IMG/VR virus record: IMGVR_UViG_3300028582_000237
Location: 2,641-66,640 of that record
Origin: a virus
Lineage: Duplodnaviria; Caudoviricetes
DNA: 64,000 nucleotides
Reading direction: 5' to 3' (one strand)
The position numbers and the translations under genes are program-made. The number at the start of each line of letters is the position of its first letter. Positions within the stretch are counted from its first letter, which is position 1. A model generated the notes under the pieces. The model ran no database searches, was not told the DNA's origin, and saw only the letters and a program-made list of their open reading frames with translations. Positions 2,031-64,000 of this stretch are shown piece after piece.

Positions 2031-2072
2031 TATTTATTAAATTGTTATATATAAAGAGGTGTGAAATTGTGA
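2031..2072 (-). promoter_or_regulatory. Putative late promoter/activator box, copy 1 (TCACwwTTTCACAC-N15-AATTT-NN-TAAATA)
   Basis: The same composite motif, with identical internal spacing and the same 68-nt offset to the start codon, recurs upstream of the portal gene (21980-22021). Confidence 0.65.
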
Positions 2073-5434: not shown

Positions 5435-5992
5435 TTATTGTTCCATGTTTAAGAATGTAATAATATTTTCGGCTATTTCTTCTGTTAATCCATCTATCCC
5501 ATCTGTCAGGAATAAATGATCTGATAAATGAACCATGTCAGGATCATCATCTATAATCACAAACCTCCCGACTGGCGTAATTAACCAATTCTTAGCATAT
5601 GACTGGCTGGCTGCTTTATTTCTTTTTTGAATCCATTCATCAATTTCAAATCCCCTGGGCCTGCTGTGGTTTTCTGCGTCAACTAATTTGGGTGTAACTC
5701 CTATTACTATTAATTCTGGATATCCCAGGGCTGTAAAAAACATTTCCCATATCATACAGGAAGAGCATCCAATTCTCCATGTTGAAGAGATTACTATTTT
5801 GGCGCCAGTCTTTTTAACAATATTACTCAATGGTTCTAAATGTATTTTATGAGGCATCATCGCGCATAATTCATTATTTTTATGTAACAAAGCACTTTTC
5901 TCTGAGTTTAAAACTCCATCGATGTCTAGGAATATTATTTTATCTGGTTTTAACATTTTTCGTATATAATTATTTCTGTTTCCCAGTGACAT
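5435..5992 (-). CDS. HAD-superfamily phosphatase (Swiss-Army-knife RNA-repair-like HAD)
   Basis: IIFLDIDGVLNS motif I, AKIVISSTWR, RG.EI.EW, FVIIDDD motif IV. Confidence 0.85.
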   Translation of the reverse strand: MSLGNRNNYIRKMLKPDKIIFLDIDGVLNSEKSALLHKNNELCAMMPHKIHLEPLSNIVKKTGAKIVISSTWRIGCSSCMIWEMFFTALGYPELIVIGVTPKLVDAENHSRPRGFEIDEWIQKRNKAASQSYAKNWLITPVGRFVIIDDDPDMVHLSDHLFLTDGIDGLTEEIAENIITFLNMEQ

Positions 5993-6260
5993 ATAATTCA
6001 GCTAATTTCTTGGAATGAAGAAATGCTCTTTCTACCATATTTTCACGAATAGTTTCTTTATAAATGAATACTCCAAAGTGATCCAGTGTCTTATATGACG
6101 AATTCCTGATATCGCCCTGTTTGATCTTTTTCATCATTTCAGTTAATATCCTAGCTGTATTCGAATTATAATCCGAATTGAGATGCAAACATCTTTTTTT
6201 GTTAAGCAGTAATAAATAATACATCTGCCGGCTATTTAATTTTTTGATGTTTCTTCTCAT
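5970..6260 (-). CDS. Hypothetical protein
   Basis: 96-aa ORF overlapping both neighbours, co-oriented in the operon. Confidence 0.5.
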   Translation of the reverse strand: MRRNIKKLNSRQMYYLLLLNKKRCLHLNSDYNSNTARILTEMMKKIKQGDIRNSSYKTLDHFGVFIYKETIRENMVERAFLHSKKLAELYVTGKQK

Positions 6261-7795
6261 ATAAGCCCCCGGCTATTTTTCTTTGTTTCCCACTCTTTTT
6301 TCTCGCTCTCCCGCAGCCAATTTTTGCCACTGCAGGCCCAATAATTAAACTCCTTCCAAAGCCAAGCATCCTTAAATTCCAAATGGAGTGTACCTTTTTT
6401 ATAGCAACGGATATAGAAAAACTCGGTTTCGTTCTTTGAACTGTCACCTACAGGAGTCTGTTGGATGCCCTGCTTTAATGATATTCTTTTATATTTTTTG
6501 TCGCGGTCCCTGGTGTTATAATCACATTGTTCTATAAGTTCATCAAACTCTTCATATTTTATTCCTGATATATAAGCCATTACTTTATCTATATCAGAAT
6601 ATGCATTCCAGTGGTTGCTTTCAGTTGTATAATAATCTCCGTTTCCCCATCCTGTAGAAACAAAGTATGGAAGAATAATCTTTTTATTTACTTTCCATTT
6701 ATCATTTGTTTTCCACCCTTCAACATGACACCGGTTTTCTTTATGGTATTTTGTAAATATGTCAAACACTTCTCCAATGGCCAGTTCCATTATTGATGTT
6801 TTATTTAAAAGAAGTGTGTTTATAAGATTGGCAACATTTTCTTTAGTAAAATCCATTGCCCCCTGCTGCTCAATAAACTTTGAAAAGTTTTTCCTGACAT
6901 TATTTGTCATATACCTTTCCATCCCCATTCTGTTAAGCACCTGTCTCCATATCTCAAGCTTGCTCATGTCGCAAAAGAAATTGTACTTCTGTTTATTGTC
7001 TTTTCCCTCGTTATCCAAAGCTTTTTCAAAATTAAAACTGCTTCCAAATAGCCCATGTTTATAAAAATCCATGCCTTCTTTGATCTTCAGATACTCGATG
7101 TACATTGCCTTTAATTTATCATACTGAACAATCATATTGCCAATAATATCTCTGACTGCTACCGGATTATTTATTGTATTTTCATTAAGTGAGTTTATAT
7201 CATGCTTTTCTGAAGCTACGTTTTGAAAATTGAATTTTAATCTGGAATTTTTATTTTCTTTATGCAGTCTTACAAGAACAACATTTACATCTGTCGGAAC
7301 GTCAGATCCCCTGAAACAATTTCCCAGGTATTCTACAGATCCATGCTGGCCTATTAAATCATTTAACAAGACTCTTTTATTGCTGAATGGGTTTTTAATT
7401 GTTTCCTCATTTAACAGGCATACTATGTCCCCCTCATCTAATATCTCCCAGGCATGAAGCAAATGTTCATCACCATTTGAAAATGGTGGGTTCATTATAA
7501 TAAGATCAAAATAGTAATCCCCGGAATATTTCAGGAAATCTTCTCCTATCAGCTTGTATCCTTTTTCCTGCAGGATAAATTGAAGTTCTTTATCCTTCTC
7601 TACGCAATAGGCACTGAAATGTTCCTGGTACCACCGGCTGTCTTTAACCATATTATTTTTAATATAATCCAAGATATTCCCGTTACCCGCCGATGGTTCT
7701 AAAATTGACAACTTAATAAAATCATGACCCCTGAAAGGCTGCAGCATTTTACGGATTACTTCTTTAGGTGTTGGATAAAATTGGTTTTCAAACAT
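6257..7795 (-). CDS. DNA adenine methyltransferase with DUF4942-type C-terminal domain
   Basis: QFYPTP, SILEPSAGNGNI (motif I), IIMNPPF (motif IV); C-terminal F..FT.YH.EN...EGWKTN..WKVNKK.ILP...K.YKKGTLH..F pattern. Confidence 0.88.
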   Translation of the reverse strand: MFENQFYPTPKEVIRKMLQPFRGHDFIKLSILEPSAGNGNILDYIKNNMVKDSRWYQEHFSAYCVEKDKELQFILQEKGYKLIGEDFLKYSGDYYFDLIIMNPPFSNGDEHLLHAWEILDEGDIVCLLNEETIKNPFSNKRVLLNDLIGQHGSVEYLGNCFRGSDVPTDVNVVLVRLHKENKNSRLKFNFQNVASEKHDINSLNENTINNPVAVRDIIGNMIVQYDKLKAMYIEYLKIKEGMDFYKHGLFGSSFNFEKALDNEGKDNKQKYNFFCDMSKLEIWRQVLNRMGMERYMTNNVRKNFSKFIEQQGAMDFTKENVANLINTLLLNKTSIMELAIGEVFDIFTKYHKENRCHVEGWKTNDKWKVNKKIILPYFVSTGWGNGDYYTTESNHWNAYSDIDKVMAYISGIKYEEFDELIEQCDYNTRDRDKKYKRISLKQGIQQTPVGDSSKNETEFFYIRCYKKGTLHLEFKDAWLWKEFNYWACSGKNWLRESEKKEWETKKNSRGLI

Positions 7796-10763: not shown

Positions 10764-10851
10764 ATTAACCTCCCGGGATTAAAGTTTACATATAGTTTGA
10801 AGCTTCTATCTATTAATTTATTAAATTTTTAAATTCCGAACAACTACTAAA

Positions 10852-10880
10852 TTGCTAAATTATTGTTAATTGGCTATTAT
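10852..10880 (+). promoter_or_regulatory. Putative sigma70-type promoter for the SRAP gene
   Basis: TTGCTA-N17-TATTAT ending 22 nt upstream of the ATG. Confidence 0.5.
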
Positions 10881-10902
10881 ATTTGTTAAAAATAGGTGAC
10901 TT

Positions 10903-11505
10903 ATGTGCGGACGTTTTGAAAATAAAATGAAATCAAAGGATATAATTGAATATTTGAGAGGTTATCTCGAAATAATAGATGAATGCTCCCAGATTGAATT
11001 TAAAAGAACCAATATAGCCCCTTCTCTTCAAATCCAGACCATTATTAAAGAGAATGACACCTTATATCTGCGGCCAACAACCTGGGGAATTGAGTTTGGA
11101 AAGAAATCTCCTTTTATAATAAATACCAGAGCTGAAACAATTCGATCAAAATCAAATTGGCGAAAAGCAGCAATTCAAAATCGGTCTCTAGTACCAATGA
11201 CTGCTTTTTATGAATGGAAACAAGACGAAAAAGATAAAAAGAAAACTCCCTATAGGATTTCTTTGCCTGGTAATGACTTATTTTTGGTCCCTGCCATTAC
11301 ACTCAAAATAGACAATGAATATTGTACCTCCCTTATTACAACTGAGCCAAATAAATCTATGTCAACTATCCATAATAGAATGCCCGTTATTATGCTTAAG
11401 TATACGATAGGTGGATATTTTAATCTTGATGAAAGTGTTTTACTGGATCAATTGCATCCTCTTAATAATGATGTAGTAATGGATGCGGAAAAAAATAGCA
11501 ATTAA
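10903..11505 (+). CDS. SRAP/HMCES-family (SOS response-associated peptidase, abasic-site crosslinking) protein
   Basis: N-terminal MCGRF, N.APS, WG, INTRAET, FYEW, IHNRMPVI. Confidence 0.95.
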   Translation: MCGRFENKMKSKDIIEYLRGYLEIIDECSQIEFKRTNIAPSLQIQTIIKENDTLYLRPTTWGIEFGKKSPFIINTRAETIRSKSNWRKAAIQNRSLVPMTAFYEWKQDEKDKKKTPYRISLPGNDLFLVPAITLKIDNEYCTSLITTEPNKSMSTIHNRMPVIMLKYTIGGYFNLDESVLLDQLHPLNNDVVMDAEKNSN

Positions 11506-11511
11506 AAGTAA

Positions 11512-11898
11512 TCACATTTTCGATGGGAATTTAAGAATTATTAAATTTTTACTTAAATTTTTGGCTTTGCTATTAGATAAACATATTTTTGATTGAGAAT
11601 CCAGGATCAAGGAATGAAATATATTTGCTTCAATTGGATCAGGCTTTAATAGAGTTCCAATCTCTCTTGTTTGGCCTGCATTTATTTTCCCAGCACCAAA
11701 TCCATCTCTGTTTTCCAACAAACTATTTAAAACAATACAATCATCTCTTTCCCCATCCCTATCGACTGAGACTCCCCCTTCTCTGACCTTAAAAAGAGCT
11801 GATGTAGGTCTATTCTCTTCCTCATTCCAATGTAATGGGTGAATAGCTCTAAATAAAGTTTCTTTGTCCTCTATATTACCTTCTGGAAAAAAACTCAT
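11512..11898 (-). CDS. Small protein with ART/RES-like pattern, candidate toxin
   Basis: ETLFRAI, PTSALF, GVSVDR, DP...N.FHSLI; last gene of an AT-rich three-gene unit. Fold assignment is inference. Confidence 0.55.
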   Translation of the reverse strand: MSFFPEGNIEDKETLFRAIHPLHWNEEENRPTSALFKVREGGVSVDRDGERDDCIVLNSLLENRDGFGAGKINAGQTREIGTLLKPDPIEANIFHSLILDSQSKICLSNSKAKNLSKNLIILKFPSKM

Positions 11899-18944: not shown

Positions 18945-20006
18945 TTATTTTCCGAATCGCTGAATTATTTCATCATCATACCAATTCTGCCATTTATCCT
19001 CGTCTTCAGCTCTTAGTTTAATCTGGTTATCCTTATCCACCCATTGATACTTTGGATTAATTCTTATCCACCTGCAGCGGCATGAGGGATGGTTGGGAAG
19101 AGCTGGCATACTATGCTCATGGTGATGTTTTTCACGTAAATTATTTTTGCTGTTGCCCTTTTTCTTATCTATTCTTGCCCTTTTGCTGGATGAACGGCCG
19201 AAATTGTTTTTGCCTGCCCACACATAATTTTCCCATACATCGGCCCATTTTTCATATTCTAACGGGTTCATATTCGCATAATCGGGAGCCGGTTCACTGC
19301 GAACCTTAAACACTTGTCCTGATATTAACTCCAAACAACTCTCACATGCATCCGGCAGTGAAAATCCCACAACATAATCCCCTTCCCTCATCATACTCAG
19401 GTAGCCATTGTTAAAAGCACTATTAGCCTCCGTAATTGCAACTCTCTGCCAGTCACGATTTAATTCTCCTGTATCATCCTTAATCTTCTCACGGAGGGCC
19501 TTAATTAAATCCTTTGCACTTCCCCCTCTTTTTATATTTTCTGTTAAAGTATCTCGAACTAACTGTATTGTGTCAATACTAGTATTACTTATTAAAGAAG
19601 CACCTTCCTCAATTGCTGCTTTTAAAGCAAGCGTCTCTTCAATTGATAAAGAATACTCTTTAGCTGCTTCTGCTACTGTTTCGGGTAGAGAATGTATTGA
19701 AGGTATTTTGAATGCAGTTCCGGAAAGATCTGTTTTGCTCAATAAGCGTCCAAGTGCATATGCACGAACTAACCAAATCTTTGATTCTGCTATTCGTGTG
19801 ACAAAATAATTCTTAATGAAAGTGTCAACATGTTCCAGTTCTTTTGTTGACAAATATTCTCCAGAACCGATCTTGTTATCATTTAGGTACTTAGTAAGTT
19901 CATCATAAAAAGTAAGAGGTGACAATACTTCGTTTAAGAGAATGTCTTCAATGAAGCCTAATTCTTTTAAGTGTAGTATTTTGTCGTCTATATTAGATTT
20001 TAACAT
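18945..20006 (-). CDS. MuF/SPP1 gp7-like minor head (head morphogenesis) protein
   Basis: RDWQRVAITE...AFN.G, CxxC (ACESC), P.HP.CRCRW; directly downstream of the portal. Confidence 0.85.
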   Translation of the reverse strand: MLKSNIDDKILHLKELGFIEDILLNEVLSPLTFYDELTKYLNDNKIGSGEYLSTKELEHVDTFIKNYFVTRIAESKIWLVRAYALGRLLSKTDLSGTAFKIPSIHSLPETVAEAAKEYSLSIEETLALKAAIEEGASLISNTSIDTIQLVRDTLTENIKRGGSAKDLIKALREKIKDDTGELNRDWQRVAITEANSAFNNGYLSMMREGDYVVGFSLPDACESCLELISGQVFKVRSEPAPDYANMNPLEYEKWADVWENYVWAGKNNFGRSSSKRARIDKKKGNSKNNLREKHHHEHSMPALPNHPSCRCRWIRINPKYQWVDKDNQIKLRAEDEDKWQNWYDDEIIQRFGK

Positions 20007-20122: not shown

Positions 20123-21940
20123 TTATTCTTCATTTAAAACACCCTCATCTATATCCACATTGTCAGAATCTTTGTATTTATCAAGTAATGCCTTATCCTT
20201 CTCTGTTAATTGCTGAGAATTTGTTCCTTCATCATTATTTTGCATCTGTCCTGCCATTGCCTGTTGCATTTCCATTTGCTGCTGCTGAGCCTGTTTTTGA
20301 TTATAGGCGGTCATTTTATTAATAATTACAGATTTAACTACTTCAAGATTTGGAGCCTTTATATCGTACAGGTTTATTTCTTCATCAATCATTAGTACTT
20401 GTTTTTCCTGATCATCTTTGGCCAATATATCATTAAGAGATTTACTTGAGGATAATTCAAGCTTCGTTATCTCCTGCTTTTCTTTTTTGTTTACCAGTTC
20501 GAAGCCTGCAAACTCCATTTTAACTGGCATCCCGGTAATTTGCTTAAACAGATTATCCCCATCCTTATCAGGAGCATTCAGGCTATCTTCCATATGATTA
20601 AGGAATATCTTCTCCCCCAGGTCTCTGTTCTCATTTATTTCACCATCAGAGGATTTATCAGAAATTGACTGTGCTTTTATTGCATCTTTATGAGCACCCA
20701 GGCTTATTTCACGCGGATCAGTGCCAGACAGCTGGCAGAAAATGGAAAAGAGAAGTGTTATCCATAAATGATACTCCATCTCCCTGGATGTTCCTCCAAT
20801 CCCAACCCATTTAGCATCACTCTTTTCACCGTTTAGTCCAAGCATAGGAAACTTGTTAGGATCAATACCGGATGCATAAGCATTCATAATCTTTTTGAAC
20901 TTTTCCAGCTGCATTGGGCCAATGCCGCCCCCGGTAAAGATTAATAAACCTTTTGGCATCCGGTTATTATTAAAATTTGAGGCGTTCATCTTTAGCGAAT
21001 TGATAATATAGGTGAGGATATTGACGGCCTGCTCAACTATGCCGAATCCTCTTTGTGCAAATCGGAAGTCAGAGCGCGTAAAAAAGTGAAACTTACGTGT
21101 CACATAATCTGTAGTAGCTGCAAAAGTATAGTCTTTGTAATTGTAGATATAATCTGGTTCTTCCTCCTCTGTAAATTTTGCTTCCCCGGATAACATGTTA
21201 TTTGAGTTTTCAAGATAAGGGGTAAGGAATGTTTCATCTAATCTTTGGAGATTAGGGTATATTCTTGATTTCTTAATTACCGGTTTAACTATTTGCGGAT
21301 CCTGAATATGTATACCCTGAGGTTCTCCTAATCCATTTCTACGGATTTCAATTGTTATATCGTCAAGGTCAAACCAATCCTCATAGCAATTACCCAGGAA
21401 TTTTGAGAAATTAGGCTTTCTGTCATTTGCAGCATAGAATAAATTATTAAATATTACATTATCCCACTGCCGAATCATTGCTTTTTCATACTTATCGGGG
21501 CTATAATCCGGATCAGCAAAAACTAACCTGCAGCCCCGTTGAATACCATCATTTTTTGGTATTCTTCCGTACTGTGCAAGACCTAACCTTCTTTTATTCT
21601 TAATTAACCTTGCTGGCTCTGTAGAACCTGCTCTCCTTAATACCCTATAAGCAACATCCTGAGTTTCCCAGTTTTTTATTTTGTAATTGCCTTTTCCAGC
21701 ATAATCAAAATTAAAGCCGTCAATATCATTTAAAACGCTCATGAATTCTTCAGCAAGCGGAAGAACTATTCCGGAATTTGTCTGATATTTACCAAGCTTT
21801 TTCTGGAAGTTTTTATCTTCCAAAAGCTCATCAAATATTTCTTCCTCTGTCATTTCCTGATATTGATCTATTTTACCAGGTTTCTTTTCTTTTGAGGGTT
21901 TTCTTTGTGTTTTTGTACTTCTTTCGATTGTTGCAAACAT
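20123..21940 (-). CDS. Portal protein (Twort/SPO1-like)
   Basis: 605 aa; F.KFL....ED....D...IEIRR...G.P......DP; GFG.VE; N..NF.....PKGLL; F.K......SG......P; EY..W...L....C...G.DP.EI; Q-rich C-terminus. Confidence 0.9.
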   Translation of the reverse strand: MFATIERSTKTQRKPSKEKKPGKIDQYQEMTEEEIFDELLEDKNFQKKLGKYQTNSGIVLPLAEEFMSVLNDIDGFNFDYAGKGNYKIKNWETQDVAYRVLRRAGSTEPARLIKNKRRLGLAQYGRIPKNDGIQRGCRLVFADPDYSPDKYEKAMIRQWDNVIFNNLFYAANDRKPNFSKFLGNCYEDWFDLDDITIEIRRNGLGEPQGIHIQDPQIVKPVIKKSRIYPNLQRLDETFLTPYLENSNNMLSGEAKFTEEEEPDYIYNYKDYTFAATTDYVTRKFHFFTRSDFRFAQRGFGIVEQAVNILTYIINSLKMNASNFNNNRMPKGLLIFTGGGIGPMQLEKFKKIMNAYASGIDPNKFPMLGLNGEKSDAKWVGIGGTSREMEYHLWITLLFSIFCQLSGTDPREISLGAHKDAIKAQSISDKSSDGEINENRDLGEKIFLNHMEDSLNAPDKDGDNLFKQITGMPVKMEFAGFELVNKKEKQEITKLELSSSKSLNDILAKDDQEKQVLMIDEEINLYDIKAPNLEVVKSVIINKMTAYNQKQAQQQQMEMQQAMAGQMQNNDEGTNSQQLTEKDKALLDKYKDSDNVDIDEGVLNEE

Positions 21941-21979: not shown

Positions 21980-22021
21980 TATTTAGCAAATTCCCGGCAA
22001 TATTAACGTGTGAAAAAGTGA
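21980..22021 (-). promoter_or_regulatory. Putative late promoter/activator box, copy 2
   Basis: TCACTTTTTCACAC-N15-AATTT-GC-TAAATA, 68 nt upstream of the portal ATG, the same geometry as copy 1; partly overlaps an imperfect 10-bp inverted repeat (21971-21997). Confidence 0.65.
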
Positions 22022-56923: not shown

Positions 56924-57280
56924 CTATGCTCCTATTTTTGACGATATTGTTTTTAACCTGCGAACATTAGACGCTTTATTAAGTATTTTAAGTGCATACT
57001 GTTGCATATCTGAAATGGGTTCATTATGTTCTGCTTTTTTCATTTTTGTTTTATCAAAAATTGCCATTACTTCCAGTTCGTTATAAATGCGCGTATCTGA
57101 ACCCGGCCTTATACTCGGAATTATGAAACCTCCTTCAACATATTTTTTATAAAATGTACTTGCATCCTTCAAACCCATTATATCAGCTGCTTCTGATTCC
57201 GAAACTGCAAGCCTTTTCCCTCCCTGCAGTAATGTGAGCTTTTTCTTTCTTTTATCTTCTTTCTCAGGCATAACTCTCAC
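56924..57280 (-). CDS. Excisionase/AlpA-like winged-HTH protein
   Basis: LAVSESEAADIMGL..STFYK......I.P......RIY...EV. Confidence 0.65.
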   Translation of the reverse strand: MRVMPEKEDKRKKKLTLLQGGKRLAVSESEAADIMGLKDASTFYKKYVEGGFIIPSIRPGSDTRIYNELEVMAIFDKTKMKKAEHNEPISDMQQYALKILNKASNVRRLKTISSKIGA

Positions 57281-57863
57281 TCATTTTATTAATCATTTCA
57301 ATGGTATTTCTACAACCAGTTTTGTTTAGTATATTTTTCCTATGATTTTCTACAGTGAAAGGACTTATATATAGCTTCTTAGCTATTTCTGTAGAACTAT
57401 AACCTGATTTTACCAAATTCATTACCTGCTTTTCTCTGGTAGTTAAATCATTTTTGCTTGCTGCTCTTAAAGACTTAACTACATACGCACGCGTATCAAC
57501 TTCTTTATCCTCTGCAAGGCTATCTATTATGTCAATCAGACTATCAATATTTTCTTTACTTTTCCATAGGTATGAGTCTACCCCGTCTATTAACATATCT
57601 ACCAGGTATTTTTCTTCATGGTTAGTCATGGCAACAATTGGTATTTCATTATTAGTTCTGCGTATATCCCAGATTATCTCTGACCCATCTGTTCCTGGCA
57701 TCCTTATATCGGTTAATATTAAGTCTGGATTATTATTAACATACTGCTCATATAGTTCATCCCCAGTGGCTGCTTCAGATACCTGATAGCCATGCTTCTG
57801 TAGTAATACCTTTATTCCCTGACGGAGTAAAGTTTCATCATCTGCTATTAGTATTTTTTTCAT
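57264..57863 (-). CDS. NarL/LuxR-family response regulator (REC plus LuxR HTH)
   Basis: ILIADD...RQG, DLILTDIRMPG.DG (phospho-acceptor Asp), AMT, YL.K; LT.RE..V..L...GYS..EIA.KL.IS..TV..HRKNI..K. Confidence 0.95.
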   Translation of the reverse strand: MKKILIADDETLLRQGIKVLLQKHGYQVSEAATGDELYEQYVNNNPDLILTDIRMPGTDGSEIIWDIRRTNNEIPIVAMTNHEEKYLVDMLIDGVDSYLWKSKENIDSLIDIIDSLAEDKEVDTRAYVVKSLRAASKNDLTTREKQVMNLVKSGYSSTEIAKKLYISPFTVENHRKNILNKTGCRNTIEMINKMSESYA

Positions 57864-58101
57864 TTAATAATTTCTTGATTTCTTGAATTTCGGTTTTAAG
57901 TGCTTCTACTTCTTTTTCTTTGTGCATCTCCAACATCATCTTAGAATCTCTCAACTCATTCCTAACATCATGCAGTGTATCAATTACATCTTTTTTTCTT
58001 TCACGTTCTTTATAGAAAAGAATAAGGGCTGCTATAAAAAGTAAAGTTAAAACTAATACTATCCCGCTTGCGCATATGTAAAACGCGTTATCATGCTCCA
58101 T
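57838..58101 (-). CDS. Single-TM coiled-coil protein (resembles the N-terminus of a histidine kinase without kinase domains)
   Basis: One 22-residue hydrophobic helix, then YKERERKK and heptads; overlaps both neighbours. Confidence 0.6.
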   Translation of the reverse strand: MEHDNAFYICASGIVLVLTLLFIAALILFYKERERKKDVIDTLHDVRNELRDSKMMLEMHKEKEVEALKTEIQEIKKLLNEKNTNSR

Positions 58102-58676
58102 GCTGTTACTCCCAGCAGTATATTGTTTGTTATATTACCTGCACTGAATATGATCATTGCTGCCCCAGCATGTTCTCTTATTATCAGGAATGATAATAAG
58201 GCAAGTATTGAATATTCCATTATTGCTGATACGAATGCTATTTTATAGAACCTGCAGTTCTTTTTAAAAACTGTCTTAAATAGAACTGCTATACATACAA
58301 TCAGAAGAACACTGGCCTCGCAAATAGTCAAAGCATCATCAAAAGTGTTAATATTCCCATAAATGAATTCAGCACTTATTACAGGGATAATAAACAGATA
58401 AACAATCTTTGACCTTTTGGGTAGCCAGTTATTCAGTATCATTAAAATCAGTCCAAGTTCAACTATTGTATAAATATGGTTTAACAAATAATTATCTACT
58501 AAATTCAGAGCCATTACCAATCCTGCTGCTTGTACTATACTACTTGTTATAATGAGTGTGGCAAATATTCGTTGATCATAACCTGTCCTTTGCCGCTGAG
58601 TCAAATATATTACCACACCCACCAGAGGTAAAACAATCGAAAAAACACTAATCCATATGTACCACGGTATATTCAC
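58059..58676 (-). CDS. Seven-TM integral membrane protein
   Basis: About seven hydrophobic segments; DNYLLNHIYTIVE motif; GTG start directly after the upstream stop. Confidence 0.75.
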   Translation of the reverse strand: MNIPWYIWISVFSIVLPLVGVVIYLTQRQRTGYDQRIFATLIITSSIVQAAGLVMALNLVDNYLLNHIYTIVELGLILMILNNWLPKRSKIVYLFIIPVISAEFIYGNINTFDDALTICEASVLLIVCIAVLFKTVFKKNCRFYKIAFVSAIMEYSILALLSFLIIREHAGAAMIIFSAGNITNNILLGVTAWSMITRFTYAQAG

Positions 58677-59087
58677 TTACTTGCCTGATACCTGGTAGCA
58701 ACAATAAATGCCTTTTTCCAGATATATTACCGGATGTAGATTTTCGTCATAAATAGTGATAACAACACATTCTTTTTTATCAAGATTGGCCCCCATTTCA
58801 AAGAGAACAAATCCTGCCCCGGCTGTTTTGGCCGCTGCTTCCACCTGATCCGCAGAAAATGCTTCCCCGCTTTCAAGGGGAATTAATGTATTTTCTTTTT
58901 TGTACATTTCCCTGTTTTTCAGAAGCTGCTCTTTCATCTCATAAGTTATTTCATGATTGACTGATTTCAGCTTTTCAATAATAACTTTGTCATATGTTTT
59001 TTCTGCCTTTGCCTTATCTGCTGCAGATGACGGCGGAATAAATAGGGACACGATAATTACTATCAGAAAATACCTTAGTAGTTTCAT
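58677..59087 (-). CDS. Secreted small protein (Sec signal peptide), candidate ligand/sensor
   Basis: MKLLRYFLIVIIVSLFIPPSSA-A signal peptide; C-terminal YCCY; SD GGA upstream. Confidence 0.7.
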   Translation of the reverse strand: MKLLRYFLIVIIVSLFIPPSSAADKAKAEKTYDKVIIEKLKSVNHEITYEMKEQLLKNREMYKKENTLIPLESGEAFSADQVEAAAKTAGAGFVLFEMGANLDKKECVVITIYDENLHPVIYLEKGIYCCYQVSGK

Positions 59088-59574: not shown

Positions 59575-59745
59575 TTACTTGATTCTATTTTTGAAAGCTT
59601 CAATACCTAAAGGAATTATTTGAACCAACAAATCTTTAATTGAGGTATCAAGGTCAATAGCAAGTTTAGCAATTTCATTGTGATGGTCTTTACGGACCTC
59701 GGCTTTTTTGAATTCCTGTTCCTGGGGGTTTTCTTTTGTTTTCAT
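59575..59745 (-). CDS. Cro-position small regulator, ribbon-helix-helix-like
   Basis: From ATG 59745: MKTKENPQEQEFKKAEVRKDHHNEIAKLAIDLDTSIKDLLVQIIPLGIEAFK; divergent from the XRE repressor and downstream of a consensus promoter. Confidence 0.6.
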   Translation of the reverse strand: MKTKENPQEQEFKKAEVRKDHHNEIAKLAIDLDTSIKDLLVQIIPLGIEAFKNRIK

Positions 59746-59790
59746 TTTTGCTTTTTTTAATTTGTAACTAAGTAAAAAAGTAACATGGGA

Positions 59791-59819
59791 AATATACGCA
59801 ATCTGCGTATTCATGTCAA
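59791..59819 (-). promoter_or_regulatory. Early lytic promoter (PR-like) with embedded operator
   Basis: TTGACA-N17-TATATT on the minus strand; perfect inverted repeat ATACGCA-atc-TGCGTAT (59794-59810) overlapping the spacer and -10. Confidence 0.8.
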
Positions 59820-59832
59820 GCAAAATATTCAC

Positions 59833-59844
59833 ATTATGCGTAAT
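59833..59844. promoter_or_regulatory. Second operator-like site
   Basis: Near-palindrome ATTATGCGTAAT containing the TGCGTA half-site, 11 nt before the repressor ATG. Confidence 0.45.
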
Positions 59845-59855
59845 TTGTTTTATAT

Positions 59856-60227
59856 ATGTCATTAGGCAATAGAATTCAGTTTGTAAGAGAGAATATTCTC
59901 AAAATTTCCAGTCAAATAGAATTTGCTAAATTATTGAATGTTGCTGGTGCTTCTACTGTTAGTGGATGGGAGAACGATGAAAGAAGGCCTAGCTATGAGA
60001 TTTTAATTAGAATTTCTGTCCTGGGTAAGGTTACTATTGATTGGTTATTAAAGGGAGATCCAGAGCCGGCTATGGTCGGAGAACCGGCACCAGAATATAA
60101 GGTGAGAGAACTTGAAGAAAAAGTCAACAAACTAACTGAGGAGAATGATAAGCTCCGGTCTCAGCTTGGGGATATTGACATTTTACTGCAGGTTACTGAC
60201 CAAATAAAGAAAAAACTTAAAAGATAA
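59856..60227 (+). CDS. XRE-family (CI-like) repressor without a peptidase domain
   Basis: LGNRI...R......SQ.EFA..L.......VS.WE...R.P....L..I......DWLL.G; C-terminal V.EP..EY plus coiled coil; no SD visible (possibly leaderless). Confidence 0.9.
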   Translation: MSLGNRIQFVRENILKISSQIEFAKLLNVAGASTVSGWENDERRPSYEILIRISVLGKVTIDWLLKGDPEPAMVGEPAPEYKVRELEEKVNKLTEENDKLRSQLGDIDILLQVTDQIKKKLKR

Positions 60228-60305
60228 AACTCGGTATAATTACGGTTTTTCGTTTGAGTACTATTAAATATTCTTATTCCACAATGGATGACATTTGGGG
60301 GTTTT

Positions 60306-60713
60306 ATGAAATATATTATTTTAGCATTCCTTTCGTTGGTTATTTATGGATGCTCCACTACTCCGGATGAAAAAGATATTATAAAAGTTGCGCAGAATAT
60401 TATGGAAAAAGATGGATCTGATAATTATCTACGGATAGAATATATAAAAAAGACAAATGGGATTATGAAGGAATTATCCGGGCAACAGGTTTATAATCTT
60501 GAATTTGAAGCAAAGATTACAATCATTAAAAAATGCTATTATGGAATTTCCAATGATGAGTTTGAAGCTTATGCCCCCTCTTATCGACTTTTCAATGATA
60601 CCAAGCCAAAGAGCCCATTAACCGATAGTGGATATGTTAATTATTTCACATCATATTTCCAATTTACTAGAACAGATAATGGCTGGTTAGGCCCAGACGG
60701 GGAATGCTATTAA
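60306..60713 (+). CDS. Lipoprotein
   Basis: MKYIILAFLSLVIYG-C lipobox; start at ATG 60306. Confidence 0.8.
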   Translation: MKYIILAFLSLVIYGCSTTPDEKDIIKVAQNIMEKDGSDNYLRIEYIKKTNGIMKELSGQQVYNLEFEAKITIIKKCYYGISNDEFEAYAPSYRLFNDTKPKSPLTDSGYVNYFTSYFQFTRTDNGWLGPDGECY

Positions 60714-60721
60714 ATTAGTTT

Positions 60722-61777
60722 ATGGATAAAGAAAAGACATACGCAATTTCAATTCCATTTACAAAAGCTGGTTATGAATTTGTAAAAAAACATATTTGCG
60801 ATTCTCATGCGGATATTGATGACGAAATAAAACAAGAATTTATTAGATATGAAATGATTAGAGATTGTAAGCGGAAGAAACTTCAGGAGGAACTGATTTC
60901 TTTTGAAGCAACACAAATATTCTGTAGACCTGATTATATTGGATGCCTGGAAAAGTTAAAAGAACTAGGTTTTATTGAACCTATTTTTGAAAGAAATACA
61001 ACTTTATCTTCAAAAGAATTCTATAAAAGACTTAAAAAGTTTATGAAAAAAGAGTCTATTGTGTTCACTGATAAGTATGAAACAACAATATCCGGACTCA
61101 AAAAAATCGATTATTTTTTAAATATCAACAAAAACATTTTTTTAGATGAATCATTCTTTTGGCTTATTAAGGGTTATATAATTGGCAGGTTTATATTGAA
61201 ACCTCCGATTAAAAGTAATGAGACGTTTGTAAAGTCACAAATACAGAAAAAAAATACACTTAATTTAGATGAATTGATGATTAGTCTTGCGAAAGACTAT
61301 ACAGAAACAACGATGAAGTTTCTAGATGAAGAAGAATTACGTTTTATAAGAGAAGTTATCATATCCGAGTTGATAGTAAATAAATCAGCAGTATATAAAT
61401 TAAGGGATATTATTTTATTGAAGTTTCCGGATGATCAATATCTATTAAATATTGATTGGGATTCTGTAATTCGTAATGAATTATCATTTATTAGCAATAA
61501 GGCTTTTTTAGCGCAAAAACAATCTGGCGATTTTATTCACATATATAGTTTACCTGGGAGTTGTGATAATTGCAAATCATACTCCAATGAAATATTTAAC
61601 AAATCAAATGTTCCGACTCTACCGCATAAGGATTGCACTAATGAAATTTGTAGATGCCTATATTTGGATTTTAATCCGAACTATAACTTTTTGGAAAATG
61701 GCACCCAACATTTGAAATATGAGAATGAAAAAGAGTGGCAAAGATGGTATGAAGATAACCTGGAATATTTTTTGTGA
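60722..61777 (+). CDS. Paralog of the phage's MuF-like head protein, encoded in the lysogeny cassette
   Basis: Collinear shared blocks with 18945-20006: LKELGFIE, ES..WL...Y..GR, LN.DW..V...E, GD.....SLP..C..C, P.LP, CRC, NP.Y, WQ.WY.D. Confidence 0.85.
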   Translation: MDKEKTYAISIPFTKAGYEFVKKHICDSHADIDDEIKQEFIRYEMIRDCKRKKLQEELISFEATQIFCRPDYIGCLEKLKELGFIEPIFERNTTLSSKEFYKRLKKFMKKESIVFTDKYETTISGLKKIDYFLNINKNIFLDESFFWLIKGYIIGRFILKPPIKSNETFVKSQIQKKNTLNLDELMISLAKDYTETTMKFLDEEELRFIREVIISELIVNKSAVYKLRDIILLKFPDDQYLLNIDWDSVIRNELSFISNKAFLAQKQSGDFIHIYSLPGSCDNCKSYSNEIFNKSNVPTLPHKDCTNEICRCLYLDFNPNYNFLENGTQHLKYENEKEWQRWYEDNLEYFL

Positions 61778-61841: not shown

Positions 61842-62819
61842 ATGAAAGCAAAGTGGTCGGGGGGCATACCATATGGCCTCAAGTTCGATCGTTCAATCAA
61901 CGGTCTTGTTATCAACAAATCTGAAGAAAAAACTTTAAAAATAATATTAAAGTTGGCAGAAACTCATACCATTATTGAAATTGTAGATAAATTAAGGAAT
62001 ATGAATATTCTAACAAGACGCGGAGGCATGTGGGCAGTTCGTAGTGTATCCTACATATTAAATCCAGAAAGAATCAAATTTTACCAGGGTATTGATAGTG
62101 AAGGTCATCCCGGGAACTGGCCGGTCCTGATAGAATCGAACACCGCTAATAAAATATTGGAGAAATTTGGCAAATTGGGAACTGGGAAAGGCAGAAGCAC
62201 TAAACCAAAATCTCTTCTTACAGGTTTAGATATTGCAAAATGTGCATATTGTAAAGGTGGGCTAAAAGTATCTTACTCGAAAGCTAAAGATCATATTAAT
62301 CTTTACTATAAGTGTGTTAAGAAGGAAATGTATGGGATAGGATACTGCCCGGATTCTAAATTATTCCGCATGGAAAAAGTAAATCAAGCTATTATTACTG
62401 ACCTTCTTGATCAATACCTAAATAAGAAAAACATTATAAAATATACTGAAGATTATGTGAAAAGGAATAGAGCATTATTAAAAGAGAAATTAAATCTTAT
62501 TAATGATAAAATTACCCAATCACTAACAAAGCAACTTTCAGCAAGTTTTAAAGATTTTCAAATTCTGGAAGAAAAAATTCTATCTCTTTTGGAGGAAAGG
62601 AAAGGTATTGCCGCAAACATTTATTTTGAATTTGATTTCACCAATCTTAAAAATATATCAAGAATGGAAATTGAAAAGCAGCGTGAAATACTTCCCCTCT
62701 TGATTAAAGAAATAATCATCCATAATGATTATTTAGATATTACATACAATTTTAGTATTGATAATGAAGGAAATAATACTGTACGTAAAAACTATATACT
62801 TGAGGAGATTGAAAGATAA
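61842..62819 (+). CDS. Large-serine-recombinase derivative lacking the catalytic resolvase domain (recombinase domain, zinc ribbon, coiled coil)
   Basis: Begins at W.GG.PYG; L...NI.TRRGG.W....V..IL; P.LI; LL.GL..C..C.G......YY.C......C; SD AGGAG; stop overlaps the integrase ATG. Confidence 0.85.
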   Translation: MKAKWSGGIPYGLKFDRSINGLVINKSEEKTLKIILKLAETHTIIEIVDKLRNMNILTRRGGMWAVRSVSYILNPERIKFYQGIDSEGHPGNWPVLIESNTANKILEKFGKLGTGKGRSTKPKSLLTGLDIAKCAYCKGGLKVSYSKAKDHINLYYKCVKKEMYGIGYCPDSKLFRMEKVNQAIITDLLDQYLNKKNIIKYTEDYVKRNRALLKEKLNLINDKITQSLTKQLSASFKDFQILEEKILSLLEERKGIAANIYFEFDFTNLKNISRMEIEKQREILPLLIKEIIIHNDYLDITYNFSIDNEGNNTVRKNYILEEIER

Positions 62820-64000
62820 TGTCCGAATTAAGATTCAATAAAAAGGGTACTCCTTTTGTATATATCCGCTACTATGATGAATTCGGCAAACGCCGGGAAG
62901 AACCTCTTGAAATTATGAAAGAAAATCGTAAAGCTGCTGAGGAATTTAAAATTATTTTTGATGCGGAACTCTTAAAGAAAAAAAAGAGTATGTCCAAAAG
63001 CCCCTTTACTACAAAAACATTAGCGGATGCTTTCGCTCATTACTTGAGAAATAATTCCAAGAAAGATAAATCAACTATAAATGAGTATAATAATTTTTTC
63101 AATTTGTTTAAGAAAACTTTTCCGGCAGATAGCGCTTGTACAACACTAAATAAATTAAATGTTGAGGCATGGTTAACATCCCTTCATGATCTGACATACA
63201 TAAAGAAAGTCCGGGATAAGAGTATTAAGAATAGGAAAAGTAGAGTATATATTGAAACAAAGGTGCCCTATTCACAGAATACTTTATTTAATTTTAATAA
63301 AAATCTTAAAAAATTCCTGGGATTCCTCTTTGAATACAACTATATCCCCTATTCATTTAAGATTAATAGGGACGTAACTACAAAAATGCAGGAACCTAAT
63401 ATTATAATTTTTGAAGATAAGGATATCCCTGAACTATTTAAAAACCTTAGCAATAAATCATCTTGTTTTAAGCTAATGTTTTATATGCTCTCATATTCAG
63501 GGTTGCGGCCAACTGATATAAAAGATATAAAAGCAGAGGATATCTTTCTAGACCGCGAAGTATTTAGATACTGGAGCGCAAAAGCAAATGAATTCAGATT
63601 CAGGCCCTTTCATCCTGTTATTATTCCAATTATTAAAGAACGATTGCAGGAAATCCAAACTGGGCCTATCCTTGAATATTCAAGCCTTGATGCAATGGGG
63701 CGTGCTTTCCGACGTTATCTCGAACAATTGGAGCTTGATAAAAAAGGCTATGACTTACGTACATTCAGGAAAACTTTTGAAACTCATGCTTATGATAATG
63801 ATATTCCAGAAGCTTCTGCAGCTGAGCTTATGGGCCATAGCATTGAAACAGCTGCCCGGCATTATAGGAAAATATCTACTACCAAATTAAAAGAACATAT
63901 AAATAAGTTCTCTTTACCAGGAATGTCTATAATTGAAAACAATGTGATAAAAAATAATAAAAAAGAAGAAGACGGGGGCAATTCGGGAGCAACCAAATGA
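62819..64000 (+). CDS. int: Tyrosine integrase
   Basis: N-terminal arm-binding-like region; SAM-like core; catalytic R (YSGLR), K, variant H-x-x-R box (RTFRKT), MGH...A.RHY. Confidence 0.92.
   Translation: MSELRFNKKGTPFVYIRYYDEFGKRREEPLEIMKENRKAAEEFKIIFDAELLKKKKSMSKSPFTTKTLADAFAHYLRNNSKKDKSTINEYNNFFNLFKKTFPADSACTTLNKLNVEAWLTSLHDLTYIKKVRDKSIKNRKSRVYIETKVPYSQNTLFNFNKNLKKFLGFLFEYNYIPYSFKINRDVTTKMQEPNIIIFEDKDIPELFKNLSNKSSCFKLMFYMLSYSGLRPTDIKDIKAEDIFLDREVFRYWSAKANEFRFRPFHPVIIPIIKERLQEIQTGPILEYSSLDAMGRAFRRYLEQLELDKKGYDLRTFRKTFETHAYDNDIPEASAAELMGHSIETAARHYRKISTTKLKEHINKFSLPGMSIIENNVIKNNKKEEDGGNSGATK

What the first reader, a model, noticed from the sequence alone, without database searches (positions are those of the whole stretch)
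60722..61777. Lysogeny-cassette paralog of the phage's own MuF head protein: candidate decoy/superinfection-blocking system
Seen: this 351-aa protein aligns end to end with the MuF-like protein at 18945-20006. Matched blocks (MuF/paralog) are LKELGFIE (identical), LSPLTFYDELTKYL/LSSKEFYKRLKKFM, ESKIWLVRAYALGR/ESFFWLIKGYIIGR, LNRDWQRVAITE/LNIDWDSVIRNE, GDYVVGFSLPDACESC/GDFIHIYSLPGSCDNC, PALP..CRCRW..INPKY/PTLP..CRCLY..FNPNY and WQNWYDD/WQRWYED. It gains a ~75-aa N-terminal extension and lacks a ~60-aa basic insertion. It sits on the opposite strand from all structural genes, 8 nt after a lipoprotein gene and between the repressor and the integrase. Established: genes in that position are typically expressed by the lysogen; MuF/gp7 proteins bind portal and DNA in the head and aid genome ejection. 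Inference: the lysogen makes an altered copy of a virion protein that could poison head assembly or DNA delivery of related superinfecting phages, or tune its own induction.
Basis: partly seen in the sequence, partly recalled or inferred. Interest (0 to 1): 0.9.

Follow-up and report, generated by a model that had tools for sequence, protein, structure and literature searches.

The report
MuF head-protein homolog in prophage lysogeny operon
A temperate phage of Ignavibacteria carries, in the same-strand gene block as its repressor and integrase, a full-length but very diverged relative of its own MuF head protein; this relative belongs to a rare, mobile, undescribed group of "stand-alone" MuF genes that may interfere with related phages, though no function was tested here.

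Summary
ORF 60722-61777 (351 aa) is homologous to the provirus's head MuF gene at 18945-20006. BLASTP gives E 6e-19 and clade profiles give hhalign 99.9%, E 5e-35. An AlphaFold model (pLDDT 87) matches only MuF or minor-capsid models.

It is not a recent copy of the phage's own gene. It groups at 35-40% identity (moderate tree support) with a small AT-rich "stand-alone" MuF clade on Ignavibacteriales MAG contigs that hold no other gene of this phage. Some of those copies sit beside defence genes or transposases. Members share a conserved ~70-aa N-terminal extension, lack the basic loop of the virion clade, and keep all shared invariant residues. Intact copies show dN/dS 0.17-0.27, but three of six other loci are broken.

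None of 19 related viral records has a second MuF. Three relatives keep the repressor ... headless serine recombinase + tyrosine integrase frame, with different exported proteins in the slot. So this is cargo in a variable slot of the lysogeny operon.

Earlier unchecked notes of this scan report MuF-derived genes in the same slot of other phages on other DNA. Four literature searches found no description of such genes.

The parts
60722..61777 (+). Stand-alone-type MuF-like protein, 351 aa. Cytoplasmic by sequence inspection (no signal peptide or TM segment seen). GC 28.6% against a window mean of 34.3%.
60722..60940 (+). N-terminal extension (aa 1-73) with no counterpart in virion MuFs. Conserved within the stand-alone clade (K-T-Y-E-I-S-L-P-L-S..KDY..L type block) and modelled as helices with pLDDT 85-95 up to aa ~50.
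60941..61768 (+). MuF-homologous body (aa 74-349): N-terminal helical domain, core helices carrying W246 and E253, a Cys-rich hairpin region, and the C-terminal NP.Y...W..WY block.
61562..61573 (+). C281-x2-C284, invariant in all 30 aligned MuF-like sequences.
61634..61657 (+). C305-x4-C310-x-C312. C310 and C312 are invariant in all 30 sequences. C305 is invariant in the stand-alone clade and takes the place of the His of the virion motif H-P-x-C-R-C.
60288..60713 (+). Putative lipoprotein, 141 aa (signal peptide ending ..V-I-Y-G-C), 8 nt upstream of the MuF-like gene. It has no homolog next to the other stand-alone copies.
59856..60227 (+). cI-like HTH repressor, 123 aa (HTH_3, Phage_CI_repr). 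First gene of the + strand block, divergent from a cro-like ORF at 59575-59862.
61842..62819 (+). Serine-recombinase homolog without the catalytic resolvase domain, 325 aa. Its stop overlaps the start of the integrase gene. The pair is conserved in three related phages.
62819..64000 (+). Tyrosine integrase. It runs to the end of the window, which is also the end of the record.
18945..20006 (-). Virion-type MuF head gene, 353 aa, just downstream of the portal gene. Weak, sub-threshold hits to PF04233 (E 4.6e-5) and TIGR01641 (E 2e-7).
19110..19289 (-). Basic, highly conserved ~58-aa stretch of the virion clade (aa ~240-299; W..GK.N.GRS...KR...HHE type). Absent from the stand-alone, 'short' and SAP-linked clades.
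20123..21940 (-). Portal protein, 605 aa. It is the presumed partner of the virion MuF.

Best explanation
The gene encodes a complete, folded member of the MuF (SPP1 gp7 / Mu gpF) superfamily that is not used as a head protein. It belongs to a rare, AT-rich, horizontally moving 'stand-alone' clade of Ignavibacteriales. That clade split from the head-MuF lineage of this phage group before that lineage gained its basic loop. Here it is cargo in the variable slot between the repressor and the recombinase pair. It is probably co-transcribed with the repressor and a lipoprotein in the lysogen (inferred from strand, 8-nt spacing and absence of a terminator). Most likely mechanism (inferred, not shown): the resident protein mimics the injected or portal-bound MuF of related phages and competes for MuF's partners, either the ends of the incoming linear genome or the portal in the procapsid. 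That would make superinfection by relatives unproductive. The lipoprotein beside it would be an independent envelope-level exclusion factor.
For: Homology and fold. All residues shared by both clades are kept (L79, E86, D130, R150, G155, W246, E253, C281, C284, C310, C312, W342), so it is not a degenerate copy. Purifying selection: dN/dS 0.17-0.27 between intact copies. Position: it lies inside a conserved lysogeny frame whose slot carries different cargo in relatives, namely a signal-peptide 187-aa protein plus a zinc-ribbon TM 82-aa protein, or signal-peptide/TM proteins of 451 and 460 aa. All ~90 other phage genes lie on the opposite strand. No terminator-like site lies between cI and the gene. 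The candidate late-promoter motif occurs only before the two head operons. Mobility: GC is 24.5-28.6% against 29-37% in the flanks in every locus. Other copies lie in chromosomes with no other gene of this phage nearby and no second MuF in three whole MAGs. Two lie next to defence genes: AbiLi at 2.8e-88 and PDC-S13 at 4e-118. The clade lives in the host group of the phages whose MuF it resembles: the loci are Ignavibacteriales, and a portal relative comes from an Ignavibacteriales MAG. Literature: SPP1 gp7 binds the portal strongly (PMC6316719). 80alpha gp44 binds and protects DNA ends, and gp44 made in the recipient cell partly complements a gp44-less phage, so a cell-resident MuF can reach incoming DNA (PMC7290940). 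Lipoproteins in lysogeny modules act in superinfection exclusion (Ltp, PMC3952083).
Against: There is no expression data and no binding test. None of 19 related viral records has such a gene. The clade is rare: 1 of 401 sampled genomes of the class, and 3 loci in a pattern scan of 185,579 species genomes. Three of six other loci are damaged: a stop codon in L004, an IS insertion in L010 and an ~85-aa deletion in L011. No neighbour is conserved, no PADLOC model hits the protein, and nothing found in four searches of the held paper library describes a MuF-like gene acting in exclusion or defence. SPP1 gp7 is dispensable, with ~25% of gp7-less virions still infectious (PMC6316719), so simple displacement of MuF might give only weak protection. 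A portal-binding decoy would also threaten the prophage's own particles after induction.
Confidence: 0.38

Rival explanations
1. It is a lysogen-expressed cargo gene whose role does not work by mimicry of the virion MuF. For example, it may be a DNA- or DNA-end-binding protein that tunes the prophage's own induction or circularisation, or one that serves host physiology.
For: The slot holds unrelated cargo in relatives. MuF-core domains occur in other architectures, such as SAP-domain fusions. gp44-type proteins bind DNA ends non-specifically (PMC7290940). Intact copies are under purifying selection.
Against: The N- and C-terminal blocks shared specifically with the head MuF of this phage group (LKELGFIE, NP.YQ...W..WY) suggest a retained common partner. 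Stand-alone copies occur in genomes without the phage.
Confidence: 0.25
2. It is a relic: a MuF gene captured by illegitimate recombination, now without function and on its way to decay.
For: It is absent from all related viral records, it is rare, half of the chromosomal copies are broken, and no partner gene is conserved.
Against: The 351-codon frame is intact. All invariant residues are kept. dN/dS is 0.17-0.27 across copies with saturated dS. The clade-specific N-terminal extension is conserved. The AlphaFold model is confident. The gene is tightly spaced in the operon.
Confidence: 0.17
3. It is a second structural MuF that this phage itself packages, as an alternative or accessory head or ejection protein.
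For: It has the full-length MuF architecture with all conserved residues.
Against: It lies on the opposite strand from all head genes, in the repressor-integrase block. The late-promoter-like motif is absent there. Complete relatives have a single MuF. Homologs sit in chromosomes without portal, terminase or capsid genes. It lacks the basic loop that is invariant in the virion clade.
Confidence: 0.08
4. It is an accessory factor of integration or excision that works with the headless serine recombinase and tyrosine integrase pair immediately downstream.
For: It lies 64 nt upstream of the recombinase pair, and MuF relatives bind DNA (PMC7290940).
Against: Three relatives have the same recombinase pair without any MuF-like gene. 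None of the other stand-alone loci has a homolog of these recombinases.
Confidence: 0.05

Closest known systems
MuF / SPP1 gp7 / 80alpha gp44 / Mu gpF minor head (ejection) proteins (Pfam PF04233, TIGR01641; MuF superfamily of Jamet et al. 2017, PMC5576092)
   Same: The fold is the same: the top 50 BFVD matches that carry a name (about two thirds) are all MuF, head-morphogenesis or minor-capsid proteins. The gene is homologous to a head MuF that lies next to a portal gene. It has the CxxC ... C-x-C motif and a conserved Glu after a Trp. It is a 'short MuF' with no toxin extension.
   Different: It matches no family HMM. It is not next to portal or terminase genes, whereas 96% of muf genes in bacterial genomes are (PMC5576092). 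It sits in the repressor-integrase block or alone in chromosomes. It has a clade-specific N-terminal extension, a Cys in place of the motif's His, and no basic loop.
Ltp-type superinfection-exclusion lipoproteins of temperate Streptococcus phages (PMC3952083)
   Same: Both are prophage genes in the lysogeny module, and here a lipoprotein gene lies directly upstream in the same presumed transcript.
   Different: The comparison applies to the neighbouring lipoprotein only, and no sequence similarity was tested or found. The MuF-like protein itself shows no signal peptide and looks cytoplasmic by inspection.
Structural-protein homologs used for interference by satellites and prophages (capsid-assembly redirection, review PMC6893505; prophage defence that targets the terminase, bioRxiv 10.1101/2025.02.27.640495)
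   Same: The proposed logic is the same: a resident element makes a protein that engages the packaging or head machinery of an invading phage.
   Different: None of these uses a MuF homolog, and the logic is inferred here, not shown.
Earlier notes of this scan on other genomes: MuF-derived genes in the repressor-integrase slot (e1-3488763, e1-2798187, e1-1996764, e1-5874174, e1-3777954, e1-3998518)
   Same: The theme is the same: a MuF-related gene in the lysogeny module of a phage that also has a head MuF.
   Different: Those notes describe truncated, core-only, membrane-anchored or C-terminal-tail versions in unrelated phages. This one is full length. The notes are unchecked AI notes and were not verified here.

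Membership tests
MuF superfamily (PF04233 Phage_Mu_F / TIGR01641 SPP1 gp7) | Significant match to the family HMM | tested here: not met
   The paralog has no hit at E <= 0.1 in Pfam, PHROGs or NCBIfam. The phage's head copy reaches only 24.6 bits against a cut-off of 29.6, and 31.2 bits against 39.65. Only 4 of 30 aligned relatives touch PF04233.
MuF superfamily (PF04233 Phage_Mu_F / TIGR01641 SPP1 gp7) | Homology to bona fide head MuF proteins by profile and by fold | tested here: met
   hhalign gives 99.9%, E 4.9e-35 against the virion clade. The AlphaFold model (pLDDT 87) matches MuF, head-morphogenesis and minor-capsid models in BFVD, 8 of them at E <= 1e-3. The Atlas structure neighbours carry PF04233.
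MuF superfamily (PF04233 Phage_Mu_F / TIGR01641 SPP1 gp7) | Conserved Cys/His motif (CxxC ... H-P-x-C-R-C) and the conserved acidic residue of the core helix | tested here: met
   C281, C284, C310 and C312 are invariant in all 30 sequences. E253 and W246 are shared by both clades. The His is replaced by C305-x4 in the stand-alone clade.
MuF superfamily (PF04233 Phage_Mu_F / TIGR01641 SPP1 gp7) | Gene lies in the head module next to portal or terminase genes | tested here: not met
   The paralog lies in the cI-integrase block on the other strand. The other clade members have no homolog of any other gene of this phage (portal, terminase and capsid genes included) in the flanks held, up to 10 kb. 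The head copy at 18945-20006 does meet this feature.
MuF superfamily (PF04233 Phage_Mu_F / TIGR01641 SPP1 gp7) | Binds the portal, is packaged in the head and is ejected with the DNA | not testable with these tools
Known anti-phage defence systems (PADLOC-DB 2.0) | Match to a defence-protein model | tested here: not met
   There is no hit for the paralog or the lipoprotein. Only neighbours in two other loci match: AbiLi and PDC-S13.
Prophage superinfection-exclusion genes (functional class) | Expressed from the prophage in the lysogen | not testable with these tools
   Expression is inferred from strand, spacing and the lack of a terminator.
Prophage superinfection-exclusion genes (functional class) | Located in the variable cargo slot of the lysogeny module | tested here: met
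   Three relatives share the frame with different cargo in the slot.

The most novel reading that the evidence does not exclude
Stand-alone MuF-like proteins are a new class of mimicry-based anti-phage factors. A resident copy of the injected or portal-bound head protein, stripped of its basic loop, would cap incoming genome ends or occupy the portal of related phages. If the unchecked earlier notes of this scan hold, the same solution has arisen repeatedly in the repressor-integrase slot of unrelated temperate phages.
Probability: 0.3. Interest if true: 0.8.

Novelty: new variant of a known kind. Interest (0 to 1): 0.55.

Why it matters
MuF proteins are among the most common minor head proteins, yet what they do remains poorly understood. 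A clade that has left the head module shows that the fold has a second life outside the virion. That clade is kept under selection, moves between genomes and sits in a prophage's lysogeny operon. If it acts by mimicry, it would add a protein-decoy principle to prophage-encoded exclusion. It would also give a handle on what MuF does at the start of infection (end protection, circularisation, portal binding). If it is only a decaying capture, it is an ordinary moron.

Tried and rejected
A single-sequence AlphaFold run failed (pLDDT 40). A 30-row alignment was needed.

Foldseek against the PDB gave nothing at E <= 1e-3. The VIA-align wide search gave at most Z 6.4 on generic helical segments. phmmer against PDB sequences gave nothing. 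So no solved structure informs the function.

The word-indexed protein search found only the protein itself. tblastn against 50,697 deposited phage genomes found no match. The scan of IMG/VR with the clade alignment found no further viral copy.

The sigma-70 and terminator scans were uninformative, with counts no higher than in shuffles.

So the contexts of P0003 and P0006, expression, and portal binding could not be examined.

I considered a recent in-phage duplication and rejected it. The nearest relative of the paralog is L005 at 40%, while the head copy is nearest to P0007 at 52%, and the virion clade is monophyletic at 95.

I considered remnants of window-type prophages in the other loci and rejected that. 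No other protein of this phage has a homolog there.

I considered a conserved two-gene lipoprotein + MuF cassette and rejected it. No lipoprotein homolog lies near the other copies.

The N-terminal extension shows no similarity to any other protein of the phage.

Full report
**1. What is there**

The window is bases 2641-66640 of a 66.6-kb IMG/VR provirus record, estimated 76% complete. Nearly all long ORFs lie on the minus strand. The exception is a plus-strand block at the right end. Its genes are:

- a cI-like HTH repressor (59856-60227; HTH_3 8.5e-8, Phage_CI_repr 4.8e-6);
- a 141-aa protein with a lipoprotein-type signal peptide (60288-60713);
- the 351-aa ORF in question (60722-61777);
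- a 325-aa serine-recombinase homolog that lacks the resolvase domain (61842-62819; PHROG 95, profile positions 236-562 of 651);
- an overlapping tyrosine integrase (62819 to the record end).

The gaps between these genes are 60, 8 and 64 nt, then an overlap. No terminator-like hairpin lies between cI and the 351-aa ORF.

The head module holds a 605-aa portal gene (20123-21940). Just downstream is a 353-aa protein with weak, sub-threshold matches to Phage_Mu_F (E 4.6e-5) and TIGR01641 (E 2.2e-7) and to 'head morphogenesis' PHROGs.

**2. The observation**

The two proteins align at 28% identity over 236 residues (E 6e-19), with a separate C-terminal block (E 4e-9). The paralog itself hits no model in Pfam, PHROGs, NCBIfam or PADLOC.

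An exhaustive HMMER search of 1.84 billion representatives gave 33 hits. They fall into four groups:

- four close relatives without the basic stretch (P0003-P0006, 36-40% identity);
- head-type proteins that all carry the basic stretch (P0007 and others);
- two short forms;
- a group that joins a SAP domain to the same Cys motif.

Profile-profile comparison of the first group with the head-type group gives 99.9% probability, E 4.9e-35, over 280 columns, covering paralog residues 74-349.

With a 30-row alignment, AlphaFold gives a confident model (mean pLDDT 87). In the BFVD library of viral models the top 50 matches include no other named family. About two thirds are named MuF, head-morphogenesis or minor-capsid proteins, and the rest are unnamed. 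Eight reach E <= 1e-3. The ESM Atlas structure neighbours likewise carry PF04233. No solved structure matches.

**3. It is not a copy of the phage's own gene**

In a maximum-likelihood tree rooted on the SAP group, the head-type proteins form a clade (SH-aLRT 95) that contains the phage's own MuF; its nearest relative is P0007 at 52%. The 351-aa protein falls with the 'stand-alone' group (support 75); its nearest relative is L005 at 40%.

The basic stretch is absent from the SAP, stand-alone and short groups and present only in the head clade. So it is more simply read as a gain of the head clade.

The stand-alone group has its own conserved N-terminal extension of about 70 residues. It also has a Cys five residues before the C-x-C where head proteins have His-Pro.

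Residues conserved in both clades are all present: L79, E86, L104, D130, R150, G155, W246, E253, C281, C284, P298, P301, C310, C312, Q322, G327 and W342. Two head-type relatives carry an intein inside the H-P-x-C|R-C motif. As a general pattern, inteins favour functionally critical sites; that is my own knowledge, not tested here.

**4. Where the relatives live**

Scans of GTDB species genomes and JGI metagenomes found six distinct other loci, all Ignavibacteriales where named.

| Locus | State of the copy | Surroundings |
|---|---|---|
| L005 (= L007) | intact, 356 aa | malic enzyme; a Bro-N protein matching defence candidate PDC-S13 (4e-118); two small ORFs; the gene; a T9SS-sorted protein; a PIN protein |
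| L006 | 305 aa, lacks the extension | an HNH_5 protein; the gene; DDE_3 and IS21 transposases |
| L011 | ~85-aa internal deletion | an AbiLi ATPase (2.8e-88) and a GHKL-type ATPase upstream; a macro-domain gene downstream |
| L010 | split by an IS4-type transposase; its C-terminal part resumes 1.2 kb downstream | transposase inside the gene |
| L004 | one in-frame TAA stop | – |
| L008 (= L009) | intact | ordinary chromosomal genes |

No neighbour is shared between loci. No other protein of this phage has a homolog in any of them. In the three MAGs that could be searched whole, the stand-alone gene is the only MuF-like sequence.

The genes are AT-rich islands: 24.5-27.2% GC against 29-37% for their loci. 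In the window the gene has 28.6% against a mean of 34.3% (sd 2.7).

Nei-Gojobori dN/dS between copies is 0.17-0.27, with dS saturated for the deeper pairs.

The clade is rare. It was found in 1 of 401 sampled genomes of the class. It was not found in the IMG/VR scan, which may leave out the window's own record, nor in 50,697 deposited phage genomes.

**5. Related phages**

The portal has many relatives. Twenty-seven IMG/VR loci encode one. In 19 of those records, three of them complete at 92-94 kb, a profile of all MuF-like sequences finds one gene per record in 18, always the head type. One incomplete record has none, and no record has a second copy.

Three relatives (G005, which is complete, plus G002 and G007) have the same overlapping pair of headless serine recombinase and tyrosine integrase, at 31-32% and 41-44% identity. 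The pair is preceded on the same strand by a repressor-like protein and by different cargo:

- a 187-aa signal-peptide protein plus an 82-aa zinc-ribbon membrane protein;
- or a 451- or 460-aa protein with a signal peptide and C-terminal membrane segments.

So the frame is conserved and the slot is variable, mostly filled by envelope proteins. This window alone has a lipoprotein plus the MuF-like gene.

**6. Reading**

Shown:
- the gene is a full-length, diverged MuF-fold protein;
- it is a member of a mobile stand-alone clade under purifying selection;
- it is placed as cargo in the lysogeny block.

Inferred:
- it is expressed in the lysogen;
- it acts against related phages by mimicry.

The literature makes the mimicry idea workable. 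SPP1 gp7 binds the portal strongly and is carried into the procapsid (PMC6316719). [quoted passage not shown] So a resident MuF can meet an incoming genome (PMC7290940). Lipoproteins in lysogeny modules are established exclusion factors (PMC3952083). Almost all known muf genes sit beside portal or terminase genes (PMC5576092), so this context is unusual.

Against the idea:
- the gene is not conserved among relatives;
- the clade is rare and half of its chromosomal copies are broken;
- gp7 is dispensable in SPP1;
- a portal-binding decoy could harm the prophage's own assembly.

I rate mimicry-type interference at about 0.35-0.4. The rivals are another lysogen-expressed role (0.25), a relic (0.17), a second structural MuF (0.08) and a recombination accessory (0.05).

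**7. Earlier notes of this scan**

A word search of the scan's notes returned six findings on other genomes. They describe MuF-derived genes (truncated, core-only, membrane-anchored or tail-only) in the repressor-integrase slot of unrelated phages. These are unchecked and I did not verify them. They are the reason to propose a systematic survey.

In passing I saw one locus that fits the theme. L050 has a 235-aa protein with the same Cys motif, next to a lipobox protein and a repressor-like gene. I also saw one that does not fit: in L049 a SAP + MuF-core protein sits between an HTH gene and a terminase-like gene.

**8. Verdict**

This is a new variant of a known family in an unusual context. 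It is of moderate interest until expression and binding are tested.

Noticed in passing
window 61842-64000; L044:7328-9347, L046:416-2429, L045:7038-9123: The serine-recombinase homolog without a resolvase domain, overlapping the start of a tyrosine integrase gene, is conserved as a pair in three related phages (31-32% and 41-44% identity). One of these is a complete 92-kb genome. So it is a maintained module, not a local truncation.
   Followed up: partly
P0008 (693 aa) and P0010 (517 aa), head-type MuF relatives: Both carry an intein-like insertion exactly inside the H-P-x-C|R-C motif of MuF. This points to that motif as functionally critical.
   Followed up: no
P0025, P0027, P0032, P0034; L049:5986-6954: This protein family joins a SAP DNA-binding domain and a helical region to the MuF Cys motif (CxxC ... 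C-T-H-x-x-G-C-R-C). In one viral contig it lies after a small HTH gene and directly before a terminase-like and a portal-like gene, both judged by eye only.
   Followed up: partly
L050:5734-7551: A 235-aa protein with the MuF Cys motif lies beside a lipobox protein (..L-T-A-C) and a 243-aa repressor-like HTH protein in an unrelated high-GC viral contig. The trio resembles the one in this window.
   Followed up: no
L010:1468-2685: An IS4-type transposase (DUF4372 + DDE_Tnp_1) is inserted in a stand-alone MuF-like gene. The two gene halves lie at 603-1370 and 2572-2988.
   Followed up: yes
L011:3471-4808, 5629-7050 and 10812-11747: An AbiLi-type ATPase (2.8e-88), a GHKL-type ATPase and a macro-domain protein surround a deleted copy of the stand-alone gene. 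The context looks like a defence island.
   Followed up: partly
window 2031-2066 and 21980-22015 (- strand): A 36-nt composite motif (TTTCACAC-N6-AT-N7-AATTT-N2-TAAATA) occurs only upstream of the capsid and portal operons: 2 matches against 0.02 expected.
   Followed up: partly
window 57264-59087: A LuxR-type response regulator, a multi-pass membrane protein, a small TM coiled-coil protein and a secreted protein lie just beside the switch region on the minus strand.
   Followed up: no
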